Position numbers and translations under genes: made by a program. A DNA stretch of 64,000 nt from assembly GCA_040772045.1 (NCBI GenBank), contig JAXGYV010000004.1, positions 65,432 to 129,431 of the forward strand. Direction: 5' to 3'. Numbering within the stretch: position 1 is the stretch's first letter; every line of letters starts with the position of its first letter. Source of the stretch: Thermoleophilia bacterium (GTDB taxonomy: Bacteria; Actinomycetota; Thermoleophilia; UBA2241). Below the pieces are notes generated by a model. It ran no database searches. It was not told the origin of the DNA and saw nothing but the letters and a program-made list of their open reading frames with translations. This document shows positions 3,221 through 47,955 of the stretch, piece by piece.

Positions 3221-3474
3221 CGACTAGCTGTTGCCTGCGGATCGGCAGCGGTGCTACATTGCACGGGTAACGCAGGTACGAAGGACGCCCGGAAGAGCGT
3301 CGCACGAGAGCCCGCCGCCCAGCGGGCGCCGAAGGGGCAAGGTGGCCACGGCCACCGAAACTCTCAGGCCAACGGAGTGCGATGTGACGGGCCCCTGGAC
3401 CAGACGGACTTCCCGTTCTCGGACAGGGTGATGGGGCACATCACCCTGTCCTTCGCATTCAGGGGAAGGACGGA

Positions 3475-4632: not shown

Positions 4633-5876
4633 ACCCCAGCGAGAACGGCGCACCCAGAAAGACGGCCGCGCCGCAGACTATGAAATTAGCTGACCGCGTA
4701 GCTCGGCTGGGCACTGAGACGGCCTTCGCCGTCTCGGCCGAAGCTGCCGCCCATGCCGCCAAGGGAAACCGCGTGTTTCCCTTCCATCTCGGCGACATGA
4801 ACCTGCCGACTCCGGCCAACATCCAGGAGGCCGCGGTCCGCGCCCTCCGCGAGGGCAAGACAGGGTACTGTCCCAACGGGGGGATCCCCGCGCTACGCGA
4901 CGCATTGGCCGCCGAGATCACGTGTACCCACGGCCTGCAACTCAGCGCCGAGAACGTGGCCATCCAGCCTGGCGGCAAGCCCGTGATCGGGAAGTTCCTG
5001 CTCACATTAGTGAACCCCGGCGAGGAGGTCCTGTACCCCAACCCCGGATTCCCGATCTATGAATCACAGATCGAGTTTCACGGTGGCGTCGCCGTGCCGT
5101 ACGGCTTTGTCCCAGGGAAGGAGAACTTCCTCCTCGACTTCGAGGCCATCGAGCGTTCCATCACGCCACGTACTCGCGCGATCATCTTCAACAACCTCCA
5201 CAACCCCACCGGGGCGGTGAGCCCCCGCGAGGAGATCGAGGCGCTCGCTGAGCTCTGTCTGAAACACGACCTGTACGTGCTTTCCGACGAGGCCTACTGG
5301 GACATCCGGTACAGCGGAGAGAGCCTCTCCATCGCCTCATTGCCCGGCATGGCCGAACGCACCGTGATCCTCTACACGTTCAGCAAGAAGTTCGCCATGA
5401 CTGGCTGGCGTCTCGGCGGCGCGATAGGGCCGAAGCACGTGATTTCCGTGATCGCCACCCTCAACGTAAACGATGAATCATGTACGAACCACTTCGTGCA
5501 ATACGCCGGGATCGAGGCGCTCACCGGCGATCAGTCCGGCGCCCAGCGCATCCTCGCGGTACTCAGAGGGCGCCGCGACGCGGCGGCGGCGGCGCTCAAC
5601 GACATCCCGGGCATCCGCTGTTACTCGCCGTCTGCGACGTTCTACCTTTACCCGGACGTGACCGACGCCATGGAGCGCTTGGGCTTGACGGACTACACCA
5701 GCTTCCGGCTGGGCGCTCTCGAACAGACCGGCTGCTCCTTCTGCACCCGGCTCCACTTCGGTAGGGCGTTGCCCGGCGAGGAGCGCGCATACGTGCGCAT
5801 CGCGTACTCTGGTATAGACGGAGAGAATATCAGCGAGGGTCTCGGCAGGCTCAAGGCGTGGGTCGAGGCCCAGTGA
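4629..5876 (+). CDS. class I/II PLP-dependent aminotransferase
   Basis: Aminotransferase fold with the PLP-lysine motif region SKKFAMTGWRLGG. Start overlaps the upstream stop codon. Confidence 0.85.
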   Translation: MNPSENGAPRKTAAPQTMKLADRVARLGTETAFAVSAEAAAHAAKGNRVFPFHLGDMNLPTPANIQEAAVRALREGKTGYCPNGGIPALRDALAAEITCTHGLQLSAENVAIQPGGKPVIGKFLLTLVNPGEEVLYPNPGFPIYESQIEFHGGVAVPYGFVPGKENFLLDFEAIERSITPRTRAIIFNNLHNPTGAVSPREEIEALAELCLKHDLYVLSDEAYWDIRYSGESLSIASLPGMAERTVILYTFSKKFAMTGWRLGGAIGPKHVISVIATLNVNDESCTNHFVQYAGIEALTGDQSGAQRILAVLRGRRDAAAAALNDIPGIRCYSPSATFYLYPDVTDAMERLGLTDYTSFRLGALEQTGCSFCTRLHFGRALPGEERAYVRIAYSGIDGENISEGLGRLKAWVEAQ

Positions 5877-9914: not shown

Positions 9915-12392
9915 TCAGCCGGCCTCGATCTCCTCGTCTGTTGCTCCCGACTCGGAGACGACGTGGAGGGCGACGGCGGACACCTTGTCGCTCTCGCGGA
10001 GATTCATCACCTTAACGCCCTGCGTGGCTCTCCCGTAGCGGCCGATGCCATCGACGCGCATCTTGATGACCACGCCATCGCGGCTCTGGATGGCGATCTC
10101 GTGGTTGTCGCGCACCACGCGCACCCCGGCCAGAGAGCCCTTTCGATCGGTAAGGGTGACCGTGCGCACGCCCAAGCCGCCCCTTCCCTGCACCGGATAC
10201 TGGTCCAGCCTCGTGCGCTTGCCGAAGCCGTTCTCGGTAACGACGAGCAGATCTGAGTCGTCGCGAGCCACATCTGTGGCGATAACCTCATCGTCTTTGC
10301 GCAGGCGCATCCCGCGGACTCCGCTGGTGTTGCGTCCCGTGGGCCGCACATCTGCTTCGTGGAAGCGGATCGCCTGACCGAGACGGCTGACCATGATGAT
10401 GTCGTCTTCGCCAGAGCAGTGCCGCACCTGAATGAGCTCGTCGTCGGGTCGCACGTCGACGGCGATAATGCCATCGGCCTTCAGCGGGGTGTTGTACGAG
10501 CCGAAGAGCGTCTTTTTCACCATACCGCGGCGCGTGGCGAAGATGAGATACTTTCCCTCGGCCACGTCGAAGTTCCGGGTGCGGATGATCGCGCGCACCG
10601 TCTCGTCGCTGCGCAGCGGCAACAAGTTGGCCAGGTGCTTGCCCCGAGCGTTCCGGCCGGCGAGCGGAAGCTCGTGTGCTTTCAGTCGGTAGACCTTGCC
10701 GATGCTCGTGAAGAACAAGACGTACTCGTGGGTCGAGGCGAAGAAGAAGTGCTCGACCTCGTCTTCTTCCTTGAGCTCCATGCCGGTGACGCCTACACCA
10801 CCGCGCTTCTGCTGACGGTACGTGGTAACGGGAAGCCGCTTCACGTAGCCCGTCTTGGTGATGGTGATGGCCATCTGTTCGTCGGCGATGAGATCCTCGA
10901 TGTCTAGTTCGCCCTCGTCGGGGATGATCTGCGTGCGCCGGTCGTCGTTGTAAAGCCGCTTAACCTCGAGCAGCTCGTCCTTGATGACTTGGTAGATAGC
11001 GTGCTCGTCACCGAGCAGCCTGCGCAGCTCCTGGATACGTACCAGTAGCCCTTGGTGTTCTTCGTGCACCTTGTGACGCTCGAGCTGCGTGAGCCGCTGG
11101 AGGCGGAGGTCGAGGATGGCCTGCGCCTGTGGCCTGGTGAGCTCGAAGGTGTCCATGAGCGACTCGCGGGCGGCGTCGGGCTCTCTCGCCTTCCGGATGA
11201 TGCTGATGACTTGATCGAGGTTGTCCAGAGCCACCAGCAGGCCCTCGAGGATGTGCGCCCTGGTCTCGGCTTTATCGAGCTCGAACTTACTGCGGCGGAC
11301 GATGACGTCCTTCTGAAACGCCACGTACGCCTTGATCATCTCCGGCAACGTGAGCGTGCGCGGCACCCCGCCGACCAGCGCGATGTTGATGACGCCGAAC
11401 GTGGTCTGCATCTGGGTGTGCTTGTACAGCTTGTTCAGCACTACCTTCGGCACGGCCTCGCGTTTGAGCTCGATGACCACGCGCATGCCGTTACGGTCGC
11501 TCTCATTCCGCAGATCGCTGGCCTCGGGCAGCTTCTTCTGCTTGACGAGGTCCACGATCTGCTCGATGAGCGCCGCACGGTTCACCTGGTAGGGAAGCTC
11601 GGTTACTACGATGGCACTGCGATTGCCCTTGAGCTGCTCAGTGTGGGCCTTGGCGCGGACGCGGATGCGTCCGCGCCCCGTGCGATACGCCTCTTTGATG
11701 CCGGCGGTGCCGAGGATGAGGCCGCCGGTGGGGAAGTCCGGCCCCTTGATGTGCTGCATGAGGTCGTCCGCCGACGCGTCGGGCTGATCGATGCTGGCCA
11801 CGATGGCGTCTACCACCTCGCCCAGATTGTGCGGGGGGATGTTGGTGGCCATGCCCACAGCGATACCGTTGGACCCGTTGACCAGGAGGTTCGGCATGCG
11901 CGCCGGCAGGACCGTGGGCTCCCGGCGCGTCTCGTCGTAGTTGGGGACCCAGTCCACGGTGTTGGCGTCGATGTCGCGCAGCATCTCCACGGCGATGCGG
12001 CTGAAGCGCGCCTCCGTGTAGCGCATGGCGGCCGGCGAGTCGCCCTCGACAGAACCGAAGTTCCCCTGGCCGTCGACCAGCGGGTAGCGCATGTTGAAGT
12101 CTTGCGCCATGCGCACCAGTGTTGGATAGATGACCGCCTCGCCGTGCGGGTGATAGTTACCCGAGGTGTCGCCCGCGATCTTGGCGCACTTACGGTGCTG
12201 CTTATTCGGCGCCAGCCCCAGATCGTTCATCGCCACCAGAATGCGCCGTTGGCTCGGCTTGAGGCCGTCGCGCACGTCTGGCAGCGCACGGTCGACGATG
12301 ACGCTCATCGCATAGTCGATGAACGATGAGCGCATCTCCTCCTCGAGCTCGATGGGCTCGATCCTGCCTTCTAGCGTCTGAACCTGATCCAT
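9915..12392 (-). CDS. gyrA: DNA gyrase subunit A
   Basis: Canonical GyrA N-terminus including the active-site region, followed by C-terminal beta-pinwheel repeats. 825 aa. Confidence 0.95.
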
Positions 12393-12404: not shown

Positions 12405-14822
<2,418 letters not shown>

Positions 14823-15005: not shown

Positions 15006-15302
15006 TCAGCGAGGGCGTCTGCCTGAGACAAACCGCAGGCGCTCTACGGGGCAATCCGGGTCGGCGGCGTGCATCTTGGCCAGGAACTCACCGCTCAGAT
15101 AGGTGAGCTCCTGCGCCCAGACCGAGGATTCACATTCGAGGACGAGCGTGCCCCGTGCGAGCCGGACCGGCGTGGCGGCCGCGGTCACGTGCGCTCCCGC
15201 GGCGGCCGACCACGCGGCGTACGCGCGGGCCTCCTCGCCCTCGCGCAGCCTCTCGGCCGTACGCTTCAGCACGTCGCCCAGGCGTACGAACTCGGCCGTC
15301 AT
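15006..15302 (-). CDS. DUF721 family protein (recF-gyrB-associated)
   Basis: Small conserved ORF between recF and gyrB. The likely start is an internal ATG (MTAEF...) overlapping the recF stop (ATGA). The track ORF extends to 15404 but overlaps recF. Confidence 0.55.
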   Translation of the reverse strand: MTAEFVRLGDVLKRTAERLREGEEARAYAAWSAAAGAHVTAAATPVRLARGTLVLECESSVWAQELTYLSGEFLAKMHAADPDCPVERLRFVSGRRPR

Positions 15303-16408
15303 ACCGCACCCTCCGGAGTATTCAAATCGATGACCAGCGCGCGGGCGAGCTCCCCGGAAGTGAAGTACATCGTCGTGGTGGTCGTCACCAGCACCTGGCC
15401 GCACTGCAGAAGCAGTTCCACCAGGAGGCGTCTTCGCCGCTCGTCAAGTTCGCTCATCACGTCGTCGAGGAGCAGCGGCCCAGTCTTGTCGAAGACCTCG
15501 GCGGCCACGTGCCGCTCGGCCAGGAGGAGGGCCAGCACCGCCGCTCGCTGTTCCCCCTGGGAGCCGAAAGGCCGCAGGTCACGACCTAGGGGGCTCGCGC
15601 CGGCCCCGCCCACCTCCAGGAAGCGCAGTTCATCGCGGTGCGGCCCAAGCGAGGTTGTACCGCGAACGATCTCCAGCGCTCGCCGCTGCCGTAGCGCCGC
15701 AAGGTAGGCCTGCACATCGTGCTCGTACTCCGCAAAACCAGACTGGAGCTCGAGATCGAACGTGCCTCCGCACGGCGTGAGGGCGGTGGCATGCTCTGCA
15801 AAGATCGGTCGGAGATATTCCACGAAATCTCTGCGCCGCCTACCCAAGTCGATACCGGCCTGAGCCACCTGCTTGTCCCACGGGTCGAGTGTGCGTTCCG
15901 CCGTGCCGCCACGCACGCGCACCAACTGAGCGTTTCGCTGTCGCAGCGCTAGGTGGAGATCCGTGCTGGCGGCTGCGTAGCTAGCATCCAGCGCGGCGGC
16001 AAACGCGTCAAGGTGAGCGCGGCGACGGGCCGGACTGCCTTTCACCAGAAGCAAACTCTCTGGTACGAAGATGAATACGGCTGCGCGGCGCCGCAATTCC
16101 TCGGCGGTGGCATCGCCTGCGCGACTAACTCGAATACGTCGGCCAGAGCCCGGCGCGAAGTACACCTGGGTACGGCTCCCGTCGTCGAGCTGCGCCTCGG
16201 CTCGCACGTAGCTTGCCCCCCACCGGACGAGCTTTTCGTCGCGGCTCGTCCGTGGCGACGCCGCCCGGAGGGCGTAGAACACCCCCTCGAGTAAGTTCGT
16301 CTTGCCAGCCGCATTCTCACCGACCACGATGTTGAGCCCGGGCGAAAAGACGAACCGGGCTTTGTGGTAGGAGCGGAAGTTCGTCAGTCCTATCTCGGCG
16401 ACGTGCAT
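15299..16408 (-). CDS. recF: DNA replication and repair protein RecF
   Basis: N-terminal Walker A (GENAAGKTNLLEG) and ABC/SMC-like RecF architecture. Conserved dnaN-recF-gyrB synteny. Confidence 0.9.
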   Translation of the reverse strand: MHVAEIGLTNFRSYHKARFVFSPGLNIVVGENAAGKTNLLEGVFYALRAASPRTSRDEKLVRWGASYVRAEAQLDDGSRTQVYFAPGSGRRIRVSRAGDATAEELRRRAAVFIFVPESLLLVKGSPARRRAHLDAFAAALDASYAAASTDLHLALRQRNAQLVRVRGGTAERTLDPWDKQVAQAGIDLGRRRRDFVEYLRPIFAEHATALTPCGGTFDLELQSGFAEYEHDVQAYLAALRQRRALEIVRGTTSLGPHRDELRFLEVGGAGASPLGRDLRPFGSQGEQRAAVLALLLAERHVAAEVFDKTGPLLLDDVMSELDERRRRLLVELLLQCGQVLVTTTTTMYFTSGELARALVIDLNTPEGAV

Positions 16409-16601: not shown

Positions 16602-17714
16602 TCAGGTGCTCAGGCGAATCGGCATGATCAGGTACACGAAATCGGCCGCCGCCTCATCTACCCCTGTGATAAGTCCGGGCCGAAGAGGACTGATCAGTTT
16701 GAGGGAGATCTTGCTCCCCTCCACGGCCTCCACCCCGTCGATAAGGTACGCGTGGTTGAATCCGATCTCGAAATCCTCACCCTCGTACGCGACATCGATC
16801 TGCTCTTCCGCCTGGCCGACATCTTGCGTAATCGCCCGCATGGTTAGCGATCCGGCGGAGAACCGCAGGCGAAGCGGAGCGTTTTTCTGAGCGAGTAGTC
16901 CAACCCGGCGGGCGACAGCGAGGAACGACTCCTTCTCCAATTCAAGCTCGTGCTCATACGCGTCTGGGAGCAGCTGCTTGTAATTCGGGAAAGCGCCATC
17001 GATGAGCCGCGTAGCGAGCACGACCTCGCCGAACCCAAAAACCGCCTGATTTTCAGTCACGGCAACGTCAACCGCATCGCGATCGCCCGCCGCAGCCAGC
17101 CGAGCGACCTCTCCCAGCGCCTTTACGGGCACGATCGCTTGCATCTCTATCTCTGGCCCGCCCTCCAGCTGCGACTGCTTCACAGCTAAACGATAACTAT
17201 CAGTCGCCACCATCTTCAGCGAGCCTCCACCCAGCACAACTAACACACCGGTGAGAATCGGGCGCGTCTCATCCCTCGAAGCGGCTCGCGCCACCTTGCT
17301 GAGGGTCTCGACGAGAGGGTCGGCGGCCACGCGGAAACTCGCAGAGAGATCGAATGCCGATGTCTGTGGAAAATCGCTAGCCGCCCACGAGTTCAGCTCG
17401 AACATCGCTTTCCCCGCGACCACCTGCACGGTGCCACCGCCACCACTCTCCACGGTAACCTCGTCCCCCGACAGGTTACGTACGATGTCGGAGAACAGTC
17501 GCGCCGGAACAACCACGTCACCCGGCTCATCGATAGTGCTCGTCAGCGTCGCCCTTACAGAGATCTCCATATCGGTCGCATACAAGTTCAAACGCTCTTC
17601 GGAGGCCTGCAGGAGGATGCCCGAGAGCACCGGTAGTGCACTCCGCGCCGATACGGCACGTGCAAGCACAGCGAGTCTGTCAACGAGGGTGCCACGGTCA
17701 CACCGGAGTCTCAT
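16602..17714 (-). CDS. dnaN: DNA polymerase III beta sliding clamp
   Basis: 370 aa three-domain clamp. Sits immediately downstream of dnaA and oriC. Confidence 0.9.
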   Translation of the reverse strand: MRLRCDRGTLVDRLAVLARAVSARSALPVLSGILLQASEERLNLYATDMEISVRATLTSTIDEPGDVVVPARLFSDIVRNLSGDEVTVESGGGGTVQVVAGKAMFELNSWAASDFPQTSAFDLSASFRVAADPLVETLSKVARAASRDETRPILTGVLVVLGGGSLKMVATDSYRLAVKQSQLEGGPEIEMQAIVPVKALGEVARLAAAGDRDAVDVAVTENQAVFGFGEVVLATRLIDGAFPNYKQLLPDAYEHELELEKESFLAVARRVGLLAQKNAPLRLRFSAGSLTMRAITQDVGQAEEQIDVAYEGEDFEIGFNHAYLIDGVEAVEGSKISLKLISPLRPGLITGVDEAAADFVYLIMPIRLST

Positions 17715-17979
17715 GCCAGCTCCTTATTTCTATGAAGAAAGTTCCTTTGTATCTGCTTCATCGTCATTATCATCTGCTGGAAGCTGTGTAGAACTGCGGG
17801 GGTGCGTGCAGAATGCGTAGTCCTCCGCAGTTCATCGTCCTGTGGACGCCGTGTGGATAAGTGTGAACGTTTACCATCCGCCAGGCGACCACACACAGCA
17901 TAGTCGGTTAAAGGGTGGGTTGTGAATCGCTCATCCTCACCATTCCACAGTCACGCTCACAACCGGTCGGGTCGCGGGC
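17715..17979. promoter_or_regulatory. oriC candidate (dnaA-dnaN intergenic): DnaA boxes plus AT-rich DNA unwinding element
   Basis: A perfect DnaA box TGTGGATAA (17852-17860) is flanked by the near-boxes TGTGGACGC, TGTGAACGT, TGTGAATCG, ATTCCACAG and TTTCACACG. AT-rich stretch at 17721-17775 (ttatttctatgaagaaagttcctttgtatctgcttcatcgtcattatcatc) in an otherwise ~68% GC genome. Confidence 0.7.
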
Positions 17980-19437
17980 CTAGCGGGTGGCTTTCACACG
18001 GTCAGTTACAGTCTGTACGAGCTCGTGGAGCTGGCGGTCGTGACCATCCTTGAGGAGACGCTCGATCTTTTGGATGGCGTAGAGAACAGTAGTGTGGTGA
18101 CGACCACCGAAGCGCTCGCCGATTTGAGGAAGAGACGCATCGGTGAGCTCACGCGAGATATACATGGCGACTTGGCGCGCGTATGCCAGGTCTTGTGTAC
18201 GACGATCGCCGCGGAGGTCGCTGATGTGACAGCCGAATTGCCGGGCGACCTCTGCCTGCACCGCGTCGACTGTAACGGGCATTCTGAACGCGTGAGGGAG
18301 GATATCCTTGAGGGCCTCCTGCGCGAGCGGCAGCGTAATTTCCCCTCCCCGGACGGCTGCGAAGCTGACCACCCGTGTGAGCGCCCCGTGGAGTTCACGG
18401 ATATTAGACGTAACGCGTGCGGCGATGTACTCGAGCACCTCACCCTCGCGGATCGGCAGGCCATCCCATTTGACCTGTCGCCGCAGGATTGCGATGCGTG
18501 TCTCTAGGTCGGGCCGGCCAATGTCGACGACGACACCAGCGCCGAAGCGAGAGCGGAGCCGCTCCTCCAATGCCTCCAGCTCCCGAGGAGGTCTGTCCGA
18601 CGTGATCACGATCTGCTTGCCGGCTTCGTACAGCGAGTTGAAGGTATGAAAGAACTCGACCTGTGTCTGCTGCTTCTCAGCGAGGAACTGAACATCGTCC
18701 ACGAGGAGGATGTCGTTGTCGCGATAAGCTTGTTTGAACCCCTCGATGCGCCCCTTGTCGGTAAGCGCGTTGATGAAGTCGTCGGTGAAGCGTTCCACGG
18801 TGACGTACTTGAACTGCAACCGTGGATGACTCGCCAGTGCCGCATGAGCGATAGCTTGCACGAGGTGCGTCTTCCCAAGGCCTGTATCGGCATAGATGAA
18901 GACGGGGTTGTACGCGGTTGCGGGCGACTCGGCGACGCTATTAGCTACCGCGGCGGCGTACTCATTGTGCGGCCCGATCACGAAACGCGCGAACGTATAC
19001 CGGGGATTAAGCTCCTGCGTCGCCTTCGCCACGGGCGCGGAGGGCTCCGCGACCCCTGGAGCTGTAGTTTTCGCTGGTGATACTGGCGCCGTGGACTGCT
19101 GGGCTTCGTCTGGGGGAGAACTTTCGGCGGGTTTCTGCGCCTCAGCCCGATCATCTACCACGATACATACGGTGATCGGCGTGGAGAGAACAGTCGTCAA
19201 CGCGTTCGTGAGGAGAGGTCCGAACCGCTTCTCCACCCAGTCACGCATGAACTCACTCGCTACACCGAGGGTGAAGGTATCGTTCGAGAGCGCAACCGCG
19301 ACGGAAGGAGCGAAGAAGAGACGATACGTCGCCTCGTTCACGTGCTGCTGGAGGTAAACCCGGGCCTCATCCCAGATGCGTGTTAGGTGGTCGTCGATCG
19401 CGTGGCTCCTCTGCGTCGAACCGGATGCGAATGGCAT
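17980..19437 (-). CDS. dnaA: chromosomal replication initiator protein DnaA
   Basis: AAA+ Walker A/B and a C-terminal DnaA-box-binding domain. 485 aa with an extended, proline/alanine-rich domain II. Confidence 0.95.
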   Translation of the reverse strand: MPFASGSTQRSHAIDDHLTRIWDEARVYLQQHVNEATYRLFFAPSVAVALSNDTFTLGVASEFMRDWVEKRFGPLLTNALTTVLSTPITVCIVVDDRAEAQKPAESSPPDEAQQSTAPVSPAKTTAPGVAEPSAPVAKATQELNPRYTFARFVIGPHNEYAAAVANSVAESPATAYNPVFIYADTGLGKTHLVQAIAHAALASHPRLQFKYVTVERFTDDFINALTDKGRIEGFKQAYRDNDILLVDDVQFLAEKQQTQVEFFHTFNSLYEAGKQIVITSDRPPRELEALEERLRSRFGAGVVVDIGRPDLETRIAILRRQVKWDGLPIREGEVLEYIAARVTSNIRELHGALTRVVSFAAVRGGEITLPLAQEALKDILPHAFRMPVTVDAVQAEVARQFGCHISDLRGDRRTQDLAYARQVAMYISRELTDASLPQIGERFGGRHHTTVLYAIQKIERLLKDGHDRQLHELVQTVTDRVKATR

Positions 19438-20267
19438 TACAGGATGGATTCCAGGAGAGAAGCGCCCCCTTCAGTAAGCACCCGTTTCCCGTCGCCGACG
19501 GGACGAACCAGGCCGGCTCGTTCCAGTATACCGAGTTCACGAAAAGCCGTAGCTGGAGCGATTTCCAACTCCTTGGCTAGGGGTGTTGGCCCAGCGGCGC
19601 CGAGCTCCATGAGCAAGACGAGCATGCGCTTTTGCCGGGTGGTAAGACGTACCGCGGGCTCGGCCGGAGTTGAGGGAGGACGAGCCTCACCCGTCTTGTG
19701 GGGCAGCCGTATGGTGAGCACGGTACCGCCGCCCAGGTTGTCCTCGATGGTGAGCACGCCGCGCAGGAACGCCAGCGACTCCTGGGCGATCGGCAGCCCG
19801 GACCCCACGCCACGAATCCAGTGCCGCTGAGCGGCGGTCGCTGTAGTGAAGCCGGGCTGGATGGCCCTGGCTTTGTCGGCGATGCCAGGGCCGTGATCCG
19901 ATATCCGCAAGACCTGTCCGCCGTCTAGGACCGTGACTACCACATCCTGAAATGAAGCGTGAATGAGATTCTCGATGAGCTCTCGAATGACCGTGTATGG
20001 GACCTGTCCGCCCTGCTCCCGGCAGTGCCGGTACGTCTCTGTGGCGAGTGAGCCGATAAGCGCGGGCAAGTCGGCCTCTTCCACGGTGATTACCCGCGGC
20101 GGGCTGGTCAGCGTGTCGTAGACGGCGATTCGTGGTGCCCCCGGTCCGCGGAGCGGGCCCTCTCCCTCCGGCGCGCTGGGCCCGTTGTCGCACGCACGCT
20201 CGTCGGCGCAGCTGGGCGCCGGCGCGTCGCTGTGACCGGCGAGAAGCCTCTCGAGGAAGGACTCCAT
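19437..20267 (-). CDS. GHKL (histidine-kinase-like) ATPase domain fused to a C-terminal winged helix-turn-helix domain; translationally coupled to dnaA
   Basis: HATPase_c motifs: N-box ELIENLIHA, G1 DHGPGI, G2 GSGLPI. C-terminal MarR/ArsR-like wHTH (TTRQKRMLVLLMELG...LAKELEIAPATAFRELGILERAGLV). Its stop codon overlaps the dnaA start (TAATG). Confidence 0.7.
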   Translation of the reverse strand: MESFLERLLAGHSDAPAPSCADERACDNGPSAPEGEGPLRGPGAPRIAVYDTLTSPPRVITVEEADLPALIGSLATETYRHCREQGGQVPYTVIRELIENLIHASFQDVVVTVLDGGQVLRISDHGPGIADKARAIQPGFTTATAAQRHWIRGVGSGLPIAQESLAFLRGVLTIEDNLGGGTVLTIRLPHKTGEARPPSTPAEPAVRLTTRQKRMLVLLMELGAAGPTPLAKELEIAPATAFRELGILERAGLVRPVGDGKRVLTEGGASLLESIL

Positions 20268-20354
20268 GGGCCGCCGAGTATAGCAGAGGCACTACGCCGA
20301 CCGAAAAGGCGCTCGGAAGCGATGAAACGCTAGCGAGCGGCAGAATCGCCGCCG

Positions 20355-20700
20355 TTCTCCACAAGGTTTTCGACAACTGTGGAGAAAGGCCCGAGGCCGC
20401 TGATCGAATTCCCGGTAAATGCGCGGCTTGTGGAAACTGGGGTTTCACGCCACATGAGAGCCAGTTGGTGGACGCAGTTCTCTCAGGGTACCCCGGCGGT
20501 GGGCTTTCTGCGGCCACTTGGTTCGTGGCGGCAGAGCAAACCTGCTGCATAGCGTGCATGAACGCAGAGAATCTCGCGGGTCGAGCAGTGTCAAGAGCTT
20601 GTTGAGGACCGAGTCGCTTATCCACGTGACCCACGAGCCTGGATGCGCGCAAAAAGGAAGATATCCACACTTTCCACAGATGACCGTGGAGAGATGCTGC
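20355..20700. promoter_or_regulatory. second DnaA-box cluster in the divergent promoter region upstream of the GHKL-wHTH/dnaA operon
   Basis: TTCTCCACA (20355-63) and TGTGGAGAA (20378-86) form a perfect inverted pair. Further boxes: TGTGGAAAC (20429-37), TTATCCACG (20618-26), ATATCCACA (20661-69), TTTCCACAG (20671-79) and CGTGGAGAG (20686-94). Confidence 0.55.
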
Positions 20701-20764
20701 GTCACACGAAACAGGTGTGGGACGTGCCCTGTTGGGCGAAGAGGTACACTCTTTCTGCTGCGGA

Positions 20765-20885
20765 GCTCCCGAACGAGGGGCTGAGAAGGCGCTTCCTGGT
20801 GCCGACGCACAGGACCTGACCACCCCCATGGGTGGCGGCGTCACGGCGACGCTGCTGGGTAATGCCAGCGAAGGGAGAGAGACTG
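20765..20885 (+). ncRNA. TPP (thiamine pyrophosphate) riboswitch candidate
   Basis: Conserved THI-element blocks appear in the expected order: GGGGCUGAGA ... ACCUGA ... CUGGGUAAUGCCAGCGAAGGGAG. It sits immediately 5' of the thiT-like transporter / thiamine pyrophosphokinase genes. An unusual ~35-nt insertion forming two small hairpins lies between ACCUGA and the GGGUAAUGCC block. Confidence 0.65.
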
Positions 20886-20887
20886 AG

Positions 20888-21565
20888 ATGTCACAGGTGT
20901 CCGTTTGTTCCCCGAGCTGCGCGCGTGCCTCGCGCGCACACACACAAATGAGCATGAACCCCGCGCGATGGGGCGCGCGGGGCCTGGCGGAGGTCGCGGT
21001 GGCCATCGCCCTGGCCGCCGCGCTCGGGTTCGTGAAGCCGTTCACCATGCCACAAGGTGGGTCTGTGAGCCTCGAGATGCTCCCGCTCGTCTTCGTGGCC
21101 ATACGCGTCGGCGTGGGCCCGGCGCTGGTGGCGGGGGGGCTCTATGGCTTCGTGCAGCTCGTCCTGCCGGGTGCATACATTTACCACCCCGCGCAGGTCG
21201 CTCTCGACTACCCGCTGGCGTACATGGCGATCGCCGCCGCCGGCCTGCTCCATGTGAGGGGGTGGCGCGCCCTCGCCGCCTCCGTGGCGCTCGCCGCCAC
21301 AGGGCGGCTGGTATTTCACTTTCTGTCGGGCATCATTTTCTTCGCCACCTACGCGCGCGACCTGGGTTGGAACCCATGGCTCTACTCCCTCTCGTACAAC
21401 GTGCTCTACCTCGTGCCCGAGGCTGCTATTACCGCAGTGATCCTCTGGCCGCTGCTGAAAGCGTACGACGCAGCCTTTCCCGGCGGCACCTCGGCCGGTG
21501 TTCTCGAGGGAGAGCGGAGTGCGGTAGCCGGTGAGAACCATCACCGGCCGGACTGCTGTGGCTGA
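20888..21565 (+). CDS. thiamine transporter ThiT-like (ECF-type S component / YuaJ family) membrane protein
   Basis: About 200 aa multi-TM protein downstream of the TPP riboswitch. An alternative in-frame ATG lies at 20948. The N-terminal part of track ORF 20717.. overlaps the riboswitch and is not coding. Confidence 0.65.
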   Translation: MSQVSVCSPSCARASRAHTQMSMNPARWGARGLAEVAVAIALAAALGFVKPFTMPQGGSVSLEMLPLVFVAIRVGVGPALVAGGLYGFVQLVLPGAYIYHPAQVALDYPLAYMAIAAAGLLHVRGWRALAASVALAATGRLVFHFLSGIIFFATYARDLGWNPWLYSLSYNVLYLVPEAAITAVILWPLLKAYDAAFPGGTSAGVLEGERSAVAGENHHRPDCCG

Positions 21566-42218: not shown

Positions 42219-42293
42219 GGGCGATTAGCTCAGGGGAAGAGCACCTGCCTTACAAGCAGGGTGTCGGTGGTTCGATTCCACCATCGCCCACCA
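42219..42293 (+). tRNA. tRNA-Val (anticodon TAC)
   Basis: Cloverleaf read by eye: acceptor GGGCGAT/ATCGCCC, anticodon stem CCTGC/GCAGG with loop CTTACAA, T-arm GGTGG-TTCGATT-CCACC, encoded CCA. Confidence 0.9.
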
Positions 42294-47879: not shown

Positions 47880-47955
47880 GGGGGCGTAGTTCAGCTGGTT
47901 AGAACGCCGGCCTGTCACGCCGGAGGTCGCGGGTTCGAGTCCCGTCGCTCCCGCC
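47880..47955 (+). tRNA. tRNA-Asp (anticodon GTC)
   Basis: Acceptor GGGGGCG/CGCTCCC, anticodon stem CCGGC/GCCGG with loop CTGTCAC, T-loop TTCGAGT, encoded CCA. Close to the canonical tRNA-Asp sequence. Confidence 0.9.

What the first reader, a model, noticed from the sequence alone, without database searches (positions are those of the whole stretch)
19437..20700. A GHKL-ATPase/winged-HTH gene is embedded in the dnaA operon and bracketed by two DnaA-box clusters
The gene normally found 5' of dnaA (rpmH/rnpA) is replaced by a 276-aa protein with a histidine-kinase-like ATPase domain (N-box ELIENLIHA, G1 DHGPGI, G2 GSGLPI) fused to a MarR/ArsR-like wHTH. Its stop overlaps the dnaA start codon (TAATG), so the two are almost certainly co-transcribed and translationally coupled. 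A cluster of at least seven DnaA-box-like 9-mers lies directly upstream of this gene, including the perfect inverted pair TTCTCCACA / TGTGGAGAA, plus TTATCCACG and ATATCCACA. The canonical box cluster and DUE lie downstream between dnaA and dnaN. An ATP-binding DNA-binding protein under apparent DnaA autoregulation, made stoichiometrically with DnaA, is a plausible uncharacterised regulator of initiation or origin sequestration. I know of no described family with this arrangement.
Basis: partly seen in the sequence, partly recalled or inferred. Interest (0 to 1): 0.7.

Follow-up and report, generated by a model that had tools for sequence, protein, structure and literature searches.

The report
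Conserved unknown ATPase gene heading dnaA operon
A 276-residue protein that joins an ATP-binding (GHKL) domain to a DNA-binding winged helix is encoded directly in front of the replication initiator gene dnaA, behind a cluster of DnaA-binding sites, in this genome and in every related locus examined from at least three bacterial phyla, which marks it as a likely but uncharacterised partner of chromosome replication control.

Summary
Window 19437..20267(-) encodes a 276-aa protein with an N-terminal F-L motif, a disordered linker, a GHKL ATP-binding domain (N-box E96/N100, G1, G2), a second linker and a winged HTH. Its TAA overlaps an in-frame dnaA ATG. Seven DnaA-box-like 9-mers lie at 20355-20678, a density no simulation reached.

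The family is large: 355 50%-identity clusters at E<=1e-30. It occurs in Thermoleophilia, Coriobacteriia, Humimicrobiia, Armatimonadota and some Bacillota MAGs. In all 77 genome loci, wherever the contig extends far enough, and in 72/72 metagenome loci with room, dnaA follows directly. Outside Thermoleophilia rpmH-rnpA-yidC lies upstream. DnaA boxes run at about 6/kb upstream of the gene against 0.01-0.2/kb in flanking DNA.

No Pfam, NCBIfam, PDB or literature entry describes the family. The nearest structure is the uncharacterised DIP2311 (3LMM).

Function is inferred, not shown. My best reading is an ATP-switched DNA-binding regulator of oriC or the dnaA operon.

One correction: translational coupling through TAATG is not conserved. 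In relatives dnaA appears to start at a conserved ACG/ATC codon 60-70 nt downstream.

Interest is high.

The parts
19437..20267 (-). CDS of the GHKL-wHTH protein (276 aa; ATG 20267..20265, TAA 19439..19437)
   Evidence: ORF list. Pfam HATPase_c 48 bits. 1940 or more homologues. 355 50%-identity clusters at E<=1e-30. AF2 model with pLDDT 84.9.
20238..20267 (-). Residues 1-10, N-terminal motif MESFLERLLA (M-x-x-F-[LF]-x-x-[LIV]-[LI]). A disordered linker follows (residues 11-43, 20139..20237).
   Evidence: M1, F4, L5, R7, L8 and L9 are nearly invariant in the clade. A related motif occurs in most subfamilies but not in the 250-aa Coriobacteriales subfamily. The model predicts a helix at residues 2-9 and has pLDDT below 50 for residues 12-34.
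19698..20138 (-). Residues 44-190: conserved N-terminal strands and helix (RIAVYD..PRV) plus the GHKL ATP-binding fold. The motifs are the N-box E96-x3-N100, G1 D124-x-G-x-G128 and G2 G153-x-G155-x-G157.
19440..19649 (-). Residues 207-276: winged helix-turn-helix, with the recognition helix at 238-250 and the wing at 254-264. A variable linker precedes it (residues 191-206, 19650..19697).
20277..20285 (-). Predicted extended -10 promoter element TGCTATACT, 9 nt before the ATG. This implies a leaderless or nearly leaderless mRNA with no Shine-Dalgarno sequence.
   Evidence: The element is conserved as CTCTGCTATACTCGG in the alignment of 63 upstream regions. The generic sigma-70 scan did not pick it up because the -35 is poor. 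Its role as a promoter is inferred.
20355..20678 (.). Upstream DnaA-box cluster with boxes at 20355(+), 20367(+), 20378(-), 20429(-), 20618(+), 20661(+) and 20670(+). It includes the inverted pair TTCTCCACA-N14-TGTGGAGAA.
   Evidence: Enrichment was tested against simulations. The boxes are positionally conserved in 63 relatives. Density is 5.86 boxes/kb against 0.01/kb elsewhere in 54 loci. An equivalent triple-box module occurs in other phyla.
17980..19437 (-). dnaA CDS as an ORF (485 aa from ATG 19437). The start conserved across the clade is more likely ATC at 19398..19396, with AGGAG at 19410..19406.
   Evidence: Pfam finds DnaA_N, Bac_DnaA and Bac_DnaA_C.
17715..17979 (.). dnaA-dnaN spacer: a perfect DnaA box at 17852-17860(-) and the most AT-rich 40-mer of the window at 17724-17763. 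This is the likely unwinding side of a two-part origin.
   Evidence: GC is 0.54 against 0.66 for the window. GC skew is lowest here. Density is 2.1 boxes/kb in the clade and 5.7/kb in other phyla.
16602..17714 (-). dnaN, followed by recF (15299..16408), dciA (15006..15404), gyrB (12405..14813) and gyrA (9915..12392), all on the - strand.
   Evidence: Pfam. The same order is seen in all related loci.
20749..21565 (+). Divergent neighbour: a sub-threshold TPP riboswitch (20749-20894) and thiT (probable ATG at 20948, ending 21565). It bounds the shared intergenic region.
   Evidence: Rfam TPP scores 32 bits in the window and 29.6-38.6 bits at the same position in four relatives. ThiT matches Pfam at 144 bits and TIGR02357 at 117 bits.

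Best explanation
The ORF is a real, strongly conserved gene and the first cistron of the dnaA-dnaN-recF-dciA-gyrBA origin cluster. It is transcribed from a promoter just downstream of a conserved DnaA-box cluster.

Its product is a small two-module protein. One module is a stand-alone GHKL nucleotide-binding domain. It keeps the Glu-x3-Asn motif typical of GHKL ATPases and Ser/Thr kinases, not of histidine kinases. A flexible linker joins it to a winged helix whose DNA-contact residues are conserved across phyla.

The proposed mechanism is inferred, not shown. ATP binding drives dimerisation of the GHKL domains. That brings two winged helices together on DNA in the DnaA-box region of the origin and dnaA promoter. 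There the protein modulates DnaA assembly and/or transcription of the dnaA operon, and hydrolysis resets the switch. The short N-terminal F-L helix on a disordered tether would recruit a partner, possibly DnaA domain I.

What is shown: gene reality, domain content, the nucleotide-binding motifs, invariant linkage to dnaA, and the DnaA-box cluster. What is inferred: co-transcription, DnaA control of the promoter, ATP-dependent dimerisation, the DNA target, and any effect on initiation.
For: Gene reality and constraint. The closest relatives are 60-80% identical over the full length. There are 355 clusters at E<=1e-30. Invariant residues include E96, N100, D124, G126, G128, G153, G155, G157, T240 and R243. 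The AF2 model has pLDDT 84.9.

Linkage to dnaA. dnaA is directly downstream in all 77 genome loci where the contig allows. The same holds in 72/72 metagenome loci with more than 600 bp of room, spanning GC 27-70%. It also holds in Armatimonadota, Coriobacteriia, Oleimmundimicrobium and Bacillota MAG loci with called genes. Gaps range from -4 to about 130 nt.

DnaA boxes. Density is 5.9-6.0/kb in the intergenic region upstream of the gene and 0.01-0.2/kb in flanking DNA. The boxes are positionally conserved. In a k-mer survey of 72 upstream regions, DnaA-box variants were the dominant motifs shared across phyla.

Kinase type. No HisKA/DHp domain was found. No receiver, STAS or sigma gene lies nearby.
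Against: There is no experimental or expression evidence of any kind.

Synteny could be held passively. The gene lies inside a two-part origin, with box clusters on both sides of the GHKL-dnaA pair, where rearrangements may be counter-selected.

The DNA target of the wHTH is unknown. No family-specific palindrome was found beyond DnaA boxes.

The GHKL domain lacks the transducer domain that GHL ATPases use for hydrolysis, so the catalytic cycle is uncertain.

The boxes lie about 70-400 nt upstream of the predicted -10, not over it. Repression by DnaA is therefore not evident from geometry.

The link between the N-terminal motif and DnaA domain I rests on one clade.
Confidence: 0.5

Rival explanations
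1. The protein acts on DnaA itself, in the manner of SpoIIAB/RsbW. It would be a stand-alone GHKL Ser/Thr kinase or ATP-dependent anti-factor that binds and/or phosphorylates DnaA (or DnaN or DciA). The wHTH would only localise it to origin DNA.
Against: NCBIfam spIIAB scores 17.8 bits against a cut-off of 135. The G1-lid-G2 half resembles histidine kinases and CheA more than anti-sigma kinases. No phospho-acceptor has been identified. The highly conserved DNA-contact residues argue that DNA binding is central and not merely a tether.
Confidence: 0.2
2. The protein is an ordinary transcription factor or nucleoid protein with targets unrelated to replication. It sits in the dnaA operon only because that position gives growth-rate-coupled, origin-proximal expression, or because genes enclosed by a two-part origin are hard to move.
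For: The architecture of a ligand-binding domain plus a wHTH is typical of one-component regulators. DnaA-box clusters flank the GHKL-dnaA pair on both sides in other phyla, at 6.0 and 5.7 boxes/kb. That could freeze gene order.
Against: Not one of about 150 loci shows the gene away from dnaA, across Actinomycetota classes, Armatimonadota and Bacillota MAGs. In Thermoleophilia the upstream neighbour changed from rpmH to thiT while the GHKL-dnaA junction was kept, so rearrangement at this locus is possible. The other genes of the cluster all act in replication.
Confidence: 0.2
3. The protein is a degenerate or orphan histidine-kinase fragment acting in a phosphorelay with a distant response regulator (as MtrA, CtrA and Spo0A bind origins).
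For: Pfam HATPase_c is the only hit above threshold. The best NCBIfam and PDB sequence hits are sensor kinases such as MtrB, KinB and CheA. NCBI names some members 'histidine kinase'.
Against: There is no HisKA, DHp or HPt domain and no conserved His in the N-terminal 90 residues. No receiver gene is nearby. All kinase-family scores are far below the family cut-offs, for example MtrB at 28 against 450 bits. The N-box carries the Glu typical of non-histidine kinases.
Confidence: 0.05

Closest known systems
DIP2311 of Corynebacterium diphtheriae (PDB 3LMM). From memory, it belongs to the COG2865-type 'ATPase-like + HTH' predicted regulators.
   Different: It is 492-556 residues long with extra N-terminal domains and only 13-15% identical. 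The window protein has no Pfam HATPase_c_4 or AlbA_2 hit. No link to dnaA is known for it, though this was not tested here.
SpoIIAB / RsbW anti-sigma factor Ser kinases
   Different: They have no DNA-binding domain and work by partner switching with STAS and sigma proteins encoded alongside. Here the neighbours are dnaA and rpmH or thiT. TIGR01925 scores 17.8 bits against a cut-off of 135.
Catalytic (CA) domains of two-component histidine kinases and CheA P4
   Same: Pfam HATPase_c scores 48 bits. The G1-lid-G2 region (DxGPGI..PGF[TS]T..GxGxGL) and the last strands closely resemble EnvZ, KinB and CheA.
   Different: There is no DHp/HisKA or HPt domain, no sensor and no cognate receiver. The N-box resembles MutL (ELIENLIHA against ELVENSLDA) and has a Glu where histidine kinases have Asn.
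MarR / TrmB / ArsR-type winged-helix regulators
   Different: All sequence scores fall below the gathering thresholds. The MarR dimerisation helices are missing, so dimerisation would have to come from the GHKL module.
Known regulators of DnaA and oriC (Hda, YabA, SirA, DiaA/HobA, Soj, SeqA, and the response regulators MtrA, CtrA and Spo0A)
   Same: The proposed role is the same: a protein that binds origin DNA or DnaA and tunes initiation. Several of these regulators act through DnaA domain I or through DnaA boxes.
   Different: To my knowledge none is a GHKL protein, and none is the conserved first gene of the dnaA operon across phyla. No homology to any of them was found.

Membership tests
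GHKL (Bergerat-fold) ATP-binding superfamily / Pfam HATPase_c | N-box with a Mg-binding Asn, G1 box DxGxG and G2 box GxGxG, in an alpha/beta sandwich | tested here: met
GHKL (Bergerat-fold) ATP-binding superfamily / Pfam HATPase_c | Actual ATP binding and turnover | not testable with these tools
   This needs nucleotide-binding and ATPase assays on purified protein.
Two-component sensor histidine kinases | A DHp/HisKA (or HPt) domain carrying the phospho-acceptor His | tested here: not met
   There is no HisKA or HPt hit. Residues 1-90 hold a short motif, a disordered linker, two strands and one helix, with no invariant His.
Two-component sensor histidine kinases | A cognate response-regulator gene in the neighbourhood | tested here: not met
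   The called genes in 11 annotated loci include no receiver domain.
SpoIIAB/RsbW anti-sigma Ser kinases | Family-level sequence membership (TIGR01925 / HATPase_c_2) | tested here: not met
   TIGR01925 scores 17.8 bits against a cut-off of 135. There is no HATPase_c_2 hit at E<=0.1.
SpoIIAB/RsbW anti-sigma Ser kinases | Genes for a sigma factor and a STAS anti-anti-sigma partner alongside | tested here: not met
   The neighbours are rpmH or thiT upstream and dnaA downstream.
SpoIIAB/RsbW anti-sigma Ser kinases | A catalytic Glu four residues before the Mg-binding Asn | tested here: met
   E96 and N100 are invariant. GHL ATPases share this feature, so it does not discriminate between the two.
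GHL ATPases (MutL, GyrB, Hsp90, MORC) | A transducer domain that supplies the catalytic Lys, and an N-terminal strap for ATP-driven dimerisation | tested here: not met
   Only motifs I and II resemble MutL, at E about 1e-4 to 1e-5. The model has no transducer-like domain.
MarR-family transcription factors | Pfam MarR score above the gathering threshold, and N- and C-terminal dimerisation helices | tested here: not met
   MarR scores 19.7 bits against 24.6. The model has only the core wHTH.
Winged helix-turn-helix DNA-binding fold | Three helices plus a beta-hairpin wing | tested here: met
dnaA operon / chromosomal origin region | Same strand as dnaA, a short or no gap, and conserved adjacency | tested here: met
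   There is a 1-nt overlap in the window. Gaps run from -4 to about 130 nt in the other loci. Adjacency holds in every locus where it could be scored.
dnaA operon / chromosomal origin region | Co-transcription on one mRNA | not testable with these tools
   No terminator-like site lies on the - strand between the genes. Confirmation needs RNA-seq or RT-PCR.
DnaA-box cluster (DnaA-binding region of oriC or the dnaA promoter) | Local enrichment of TTATCCACA-like 9-mers, conserved in position among relatives | tested here: met
DnaA-box cluster (DnaA-binding region of oriC or the dnaA promoter) | DnaA binding and origin or promoter function | not testable with these tools
   This needs EMSA, footprinting or ChIP, and an autonomous-replication or reporter assay.

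The most novel reading that the evidence does not exclude
The GHKL-wHTH protein is a previously unrecognised, widely conserved core component of replication-initiation control in deep-branching Terrabacteria (Thermoleophilia, Coriobacteriia, Humimicrobiia, Armatimonadota and some Bacillota). It would be an ATP-driven switch, either a clamp or a Ser/Thr kinase, that acts directly on DnaA and/or the DnaA-box array. It would fill the role that Hda, YabA, SirA or SeqA play elsewhere, and its tethered N-terminal peptide would dock on DnaA domain I.
Probability: 0.35. Interest if true: 0.9.

Novelty: new variant of a known kind. Interest (0 to 1): 0.8.

Why it matters
The rpmH-dnaA-dnaN region is among the best-studied loci in bacteria. 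Even so, how initiation is controlled outside a few model organisms is largely unknown, and most phyla lack recognisable Hda, SeqA, YabA or SirA.

This gene offers a concrete, testable candidate. It is small and strongly conserved, it always heads the dnaA operon, and it has an ATP-binding domain and a DNA-binding domain. It occurs in lineages that include abundant Coriobacteriaceae seen in many public assemblies and common soil Thermoleophilia.

If it regulates DnaA or oriC, it would add a new protein class (GHKL) to the initiation toolkit. It would also link initiation to nucleotide state by a route other than the AAA+ cycle of DnaA itself.

The side observation that dnaA in this clade appears to start at ACG/ATC is a second, independent lever on DnaA dosage and worth testing.

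Tried and rejected
- Shallow structure model. The first AF2 run used a 27-sequence alignment and gave a poor GHKL model (pLDDT 63.6). An 80-sequence alignment replaced it.
- Fold libraries and scans. The afdb50 fold library was unavailable. It was repeated with alignment A3.
- Spacer RNA structure. RNAalifold on the GHKL-dnaA spacer of 19 relatives gave -4.7 kcal/mol and essentially no covariation. No RNA element is claimed there, despite the conserved GCCGCCGCATCCCCGGGG.
- Readthrough or frameshift fusion of the GHKL protein and DnaA. This was rejected. The two frames are related about randomly (roughly one third in frame), and spacer lengths differ by non-multiples of 3.
- Family-specific operator. 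A k-mer survey of 72 upstream regions returned mainly DnaA-box variants, with a few less frequent extra k-mers and no clear palindrome.
- Defence-system or phage origin. PADLOC and PHROGs gave only domain-level hits.
- Spurious ORF. Thousands of homologues and the conservation pattern rule this out. The overlapping 471-aa ORF at 19687..21102(-) is a high-GC artefact.
- Generic sigma-70 scan. It did not detect the predicted promoter, so that call rests on conservation of TGCTATACT alone.
- Literature. Eight full-text searches found nothing on this family.
- Possible mis-binning. Organism labels such as 'Methanomicrobiales', 'Calditrichia' and 'Bacteroidales' on a few MAG contigs are probably binning errors, because the loci are typical of Thermoleophilia or Coriobacteriia.
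Full report
**1. What is in the window**

On the minus strand the gene order is gyrA (9915..12392), gyrB (12405..14813), dciA (15006..15404), recF (15299..16408), dnaN (16602..17714), dnaA (17980..19437) and then the flagged ORF (19437..20267). Divergent on the plus strand are thiT and a thiamine pyrophosphokinase gene, followed by moeA.

The ORF encodes 276 aa. Its TAA (19439..19437) shares one base with an in-frame ATG of the dnaA reading frame.

Pfam gives HATPase_c at 48 bits (gathering score 26.4) for residues 91-191. Winged-helix hits (MarR, HTH_20, TrmB, HVO_A0261_N) on residues 208-274 fall below threshold. NCBIfam gives only weak matches to sensor kinases, MutL and SpoIIAB, all far below their family cut-offs.

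Cumulative GC skew reaches its minimum at 16-18 kb. The locus is therefore the chromosomal origin region. No rpmH, rnpA or yidC is detectable anywhere in the 64 kb.

**2. The DnaA-box observation**

Boxes with at most 1 mismatch to TTATCCACA lie at 20355(+), 20378(-), 20618(+) and 20661(+). Boxes with 2 mismatches lie at 20367, 20429(-) and 20670.

The whole window has 11 boxes with at most 1 mismatch, against 3.2 expected. Four of them fall within 324 bp. In 60 first-order Markov simulations no 450-bp stretch held more than 2 such boxes, or more than 4 at the 2-mismatch level, where 7 are observed.

The dnaA-dnaN spacer carries the only perfect box (17852). It also carries the most AT-rich 40-mer of the window (17724-17763, GC 0.33 against a median of 0.65). 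The layout is thus a two-part origin region, with the larger box cluster upstream of the new gene and the probable unwinding element downstream of dnaA.

About 150 nt of the shared intergenic region on the thiT side is taken up by a weak TPP riboswitch. It scores 32 bits here and 29.6-38.6 bits at the same position in four relatives, always below the Rfam gathering score of 54.3.

**3. Is the gene real, and how widespread is it?**

A search of 5.8 billion proteins returned 1940 hits. The top 120 are 58-99% identical over the full length.

An exhaustive profile search of 1.84 billion cluster representatives found 355 clusters at E<=1e-30 and 533 at E<=1e-10, and the representatives aligned share the same architecture. 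Source names, where present, are 'ATP-binding protein', 'histidine kinase' or 'anti-sigma regulatory factor'. The organisms named are Thermoleophilia, Coriobacteriia/Coriobacteriaceae, Candidatus Humimicrobiia, Candidatus Oleimmundimicrobium, Armatimonadota and 'Firmicutes' MAGs.

In an 80-sequence alignment with mean column identity 31%, the invariant residues are A48, Y50, D51, P57, Y79, G86, P90, E96, E99, N100, H103, A104, F106, G117, D124, G126, P127, G128, K132, P138, A143, G153, V154, G155, G157, P159, G170, D176, N177, G181, V183, T185, G226, T240, R243 and L264. The GHKL core and the recognition helix are equally conserved (0.71 and 0.70), while the two linkers are not (0.13 and 0.21).

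**4.

- A scan of one genome per GTDB species gave 77 loci, nearly all labelled Thermoleophilia or Actinomycetota MAGs. In every locus where the contig allows, the order is TPK <- thiT <- | GHKL -> dnaA -> dnaN -> recF.
- Annotated contigs were fetched for distant members: Armatimonadota (L078), Coriobacteriia (L080), Oleimmundimicrobium (L082, 37% GC), an unnamed NCBI assembly contig (L084, 67% GC), Coriobacteriales and the related short-N-terminus subfamily (L166, L169-L171) and Bacillota MAGs (L167, L168). All show rpmH <- rnpA <- yidD <- yidC <- jag | GHKL -> dnaA -> dnaN -> (yaaA) -> recF -> dciA -> gyrB.
- A metagenome scan seeded with low-GC members found 548 relatives. Of the 80 loci kept (GC 27-70%), all 72 with more than 600 bp of downstream sequence have dnaA immediately downstream. 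The script flagged L094 as an exception, but there the two genes overlap by 4 nt.
- Gaps between the GHKL stop and the dnaA start run from -4 to about 130 nt, and many are 2-14 nt.

The gene was not found away from dnaA in about 150 loci. In Thermoleophilia the upstream neighbour changed from rpmH to thiT while the GHKL-dnaA junction was kept.

**5. Cis elements around the gene**

In 54 Thermoleophilia loci, boxes with at most 1 mismatch occur at:
- 5.86/kb in the thiT-GHKL intergenic region (2-6 per locus);
- 2.08/kb in the dnaA-dnaN spacer;
- 0/kb in the two coding regions;
- 0.01/kb in the remaining 483 kb.

In 46 loci from other lineages the figures are 5.99/kb upstream, 5.69/kb in the dnaA-dnaN spacer and 0.2-0.3/kb elsewhere.

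An alignment of 63 upstream regions shows five positionally conserved boxes. It also shows a conserved TGCTATACT 9-11 nt before the ATG. That is an extended -10, which implies a leaderless mRNA without a Shine-Dalgarno sequence (window 20285..20277).

Across phyla the same module recurs: TTTTCCACA-n2-3-TGTGGAAA-n3-5-TGTGGATAA. In a k-mer survey of 72 upstream regions, DnaA-box variants dominated the motifs shared across phyla.

Some database proteins carry a false N-terminal extension 'MSKTLWIT'. This is simply the translation of that conserved box module.

**6. Structure and chemistry**

With the 80-sequence alignment, AF2 gives pLDDT 84.9. The model contains:
- a short helix at residues 2-9;
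- a disordered segment at 12-34;
- strands at 46-49 and 58-61;
- a helix at 67-84;
- the N-box helix at 91-103;
- the rest of the Bergerat fold, to residue 187;
- a linker;
- a winged helix (helices 210-222, 227-234 and 238-250, wing 254-264, helix 266-275).

The first half of the domain, V-I-R-E-L-I-E-N-L-I-H-A...D-H-G-P-G-I, aligns with motifs I and II of MutL. The second half, PGFTT...RGVGSGLP...IEDNLGGGTV, aligns with EnvZ and CheA.

The invariant Glu sits four residues before the Mg-binding Asn. From established knowledge of the GHKL superfamily, this is the mark of the ATPases (GyrB, MutL, Hsp90) and the Ser/Thr kinases (SpoIIAB, PDK/BCK). Histidine kinases carry Asn at that position. 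There is no DHp, HPt or transducer domain and no receiver, STAS or sigma gene nearby.

**7. Most likely mechanism**

Shown: the gene is real; the nucleotide-binding motifs are intact; the DNA-contact residues of the wHTH (T240 and R243 invariant, K261 and R262 nearly so) are conserved across phyla; linkage to dnaA is invariant; and a conserved DnaA-box array lies in front.

Inferred: the gene is co-transcribed with dnaA from a promoter under the influence of DnaA. ATP binding dimerises the GHKL modules, as it does in other stand-alone GHKL domains. This pairs two winged helices on DNA in the origin and dnaA promoter region. There the protein changes DnaA assembly or operon transcription, and hydrolysis resets it.

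I give this reading about 0.5. A direct action on DnaA (kinase or anti-factor) gets 0.2, an unrelated regulator held in place by position 0.2, and an orphan histidine-kinase relay 0.05.

A passive explanation for the synteny cannot be excluded, since genes enclosed by a two-part origin are hard to move. It explains neither the retention of the gene nor its sequence conservation.

**8. The N-terminal motif**

Most subfamilies begin with M-x-x-F-[LF]-x-x-[LIV]-[LI]. Examples are MESFLDRLL, MRDFLRQVI, MERFLEKIL, MKRFFET and MSLRAFLARLI. A disordered stretch of 15-60 residues follows.

The 250-aa Coriobacteriales subfamily lacks the motif. In all four of its loci examined, the adjacent DnaA has a strongly diverged domain I, with DnaA_N scoring 0-16.6 bits against 43-57 bits in L078 and L080. 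This is one clade and therefore one evolutionary event. I treat it only as a hint that the peptide docks on DnaA domain I.

**9. Correction on translational coupling**

In 45 of 68 Thermoleophilia loci there is no in-frame ATG, GTG or TTG between the upstream stop and the invariant Trp of the DnaA N-terminus.

The codon eight positions before that Trp is ACG in 39 loci, ATC in 25 (including the window) and ATG in one. That one, L038, has an upstream context nearly identical to those of its ACG relatives. Three loci were mis-anchored.

A GGGG or GAGG run lies 5-8 nt upstream in 62 of 68 loci. The seven codons that follow vary synonymously (GAG/GAA, CAG/CAA, CTG/CTC), so they are translated.

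dnaA in this clade therefore most probably initiates at ACG or ATC, 60-70 nt after the GHKL stop. The window keeps ATC (19398..19396) and AGGAG (19410..19406). Its overlapping ATG at 19437 is a lineage-specific addition that may or may not be used.

Overlaps do occur in other lineages (GTGA, ATGA, TAATG). Coupling is thus recurrent but not a defining feature.

**10. Novelty and verdict**

No Pfam or NCBIfam family model, no solved structure and no paper among eight full-text searches describes a GHKL-wHTH gene at the head of the dnaA operon. The library lacks most subscription journals, so absence of evidence there is not proof.

The parts are familiar: a GHKL domain, a wHTH and DnaA boxes. 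The combination and its invariant position are not. I rate it a new variant of a known kind, namely a nucleotide-switched DNA-binding regulator or an origin-associated factor. There is a substantial chance that it is a new class of initiation regulator. Interest is 0.8.

Noticed in passing
window 19396-19410 (-); L001-L077 at the GHKL-dnaA junction: dnaA in this Thermoleophilia clade appears to use a non-canonical start codon. It is ACG in 39 loci, ATC in 25 (including the window) and ATG in only 1. A Shine-Dalgarno-like GGGG/GAGG run precedes it. In 45 of 68 loci there is no in-frame ATG, GTG or TTG at all upstream of the conserved N-terminus.
   Followed up: partly
L002, L006, L013 and other loci, in the 60-70 nt between the GHKL stop and the dnaA start (e.g. 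L006:6862-6935): The spacer holds a conserved element, GCCGCCGCATCCCCGGGG, flanked by CCCCGG. RNAalifold finds only a weak structure with no covariation, so its role is unknown.
   Followed up: partly
window 20749-20894 (+); L002, L006, L013 and L025 at about 5370-5528 (-): A sub-threshold TPP riboswitch (29.6-38.6 bits against the Rfam gathering score of 54.3) lies in front of thiT at the same position in the window and four relatives. It is probably a real but divergent THI element.
   Followed up: partly
L078-L168, upstream of the GHKL gene (e.g. L091, L099, L101, L107): A triple DnaA-box module, TTTTCCACA-n2-3-TGTGGAAA-n3-5-TGTGGATAA, recurs in front of the gene in Actinomycetota, Armatimonadota and Bacillota loci. 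In Thermoleophilia the middle box has decayed to cTTGAAcA.
   Followed up: partly
L166, L169, L170 and L171 (Coriobacteriales subfamily): GHKL-wHTH proteins of about 250 aa that lack the N-terminal F-L motif sit next to DnaA proteins of about 500 aa. Domain I of those DnaA proteins barely matches Pfam DnaA_N (0-16.6 bits, against 43-57 bits elsewhere).
   Followed up: partly
window 20277-20285 (-): The GHKL gene seems to be leaderless. A conserved extended -10 (TGCTATACT) ends 9 nt before the ATG, and there is no Shine-Dalgarno sequence.
   Followed up: partly
window 3293-3389 (+): A glycine riboswitch aptamer scores 63 bits, above the gathering score.
   Followed up: no
window 42219-42290 (+) and 47880-47953 (+): Two tRNA genes, found by Rfam at 70-71 bits.
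   Followed up: no
window 12405-14813 (-): GyrB is unusually long (802 aa as an ORF). About 190 residues separate the Toprim domain from the C-terminal domain.
   Followed up: no
L071, L072; P0490: Contigs carrying typical Thermoleophilia or Coriobacteriia versions of the locus are labelled Methanomicrobiales archaeon, Calditrichia and Bacteroidales in their MAG records. These are probably binning errors.
   Followed up: no
window 19687-21102 (-): A 471-aa ORF overlaps the GHKL gene, the DnaA-box region and the thiT leader. It is a high-GC artefact, not a gene.
   Followed up: no
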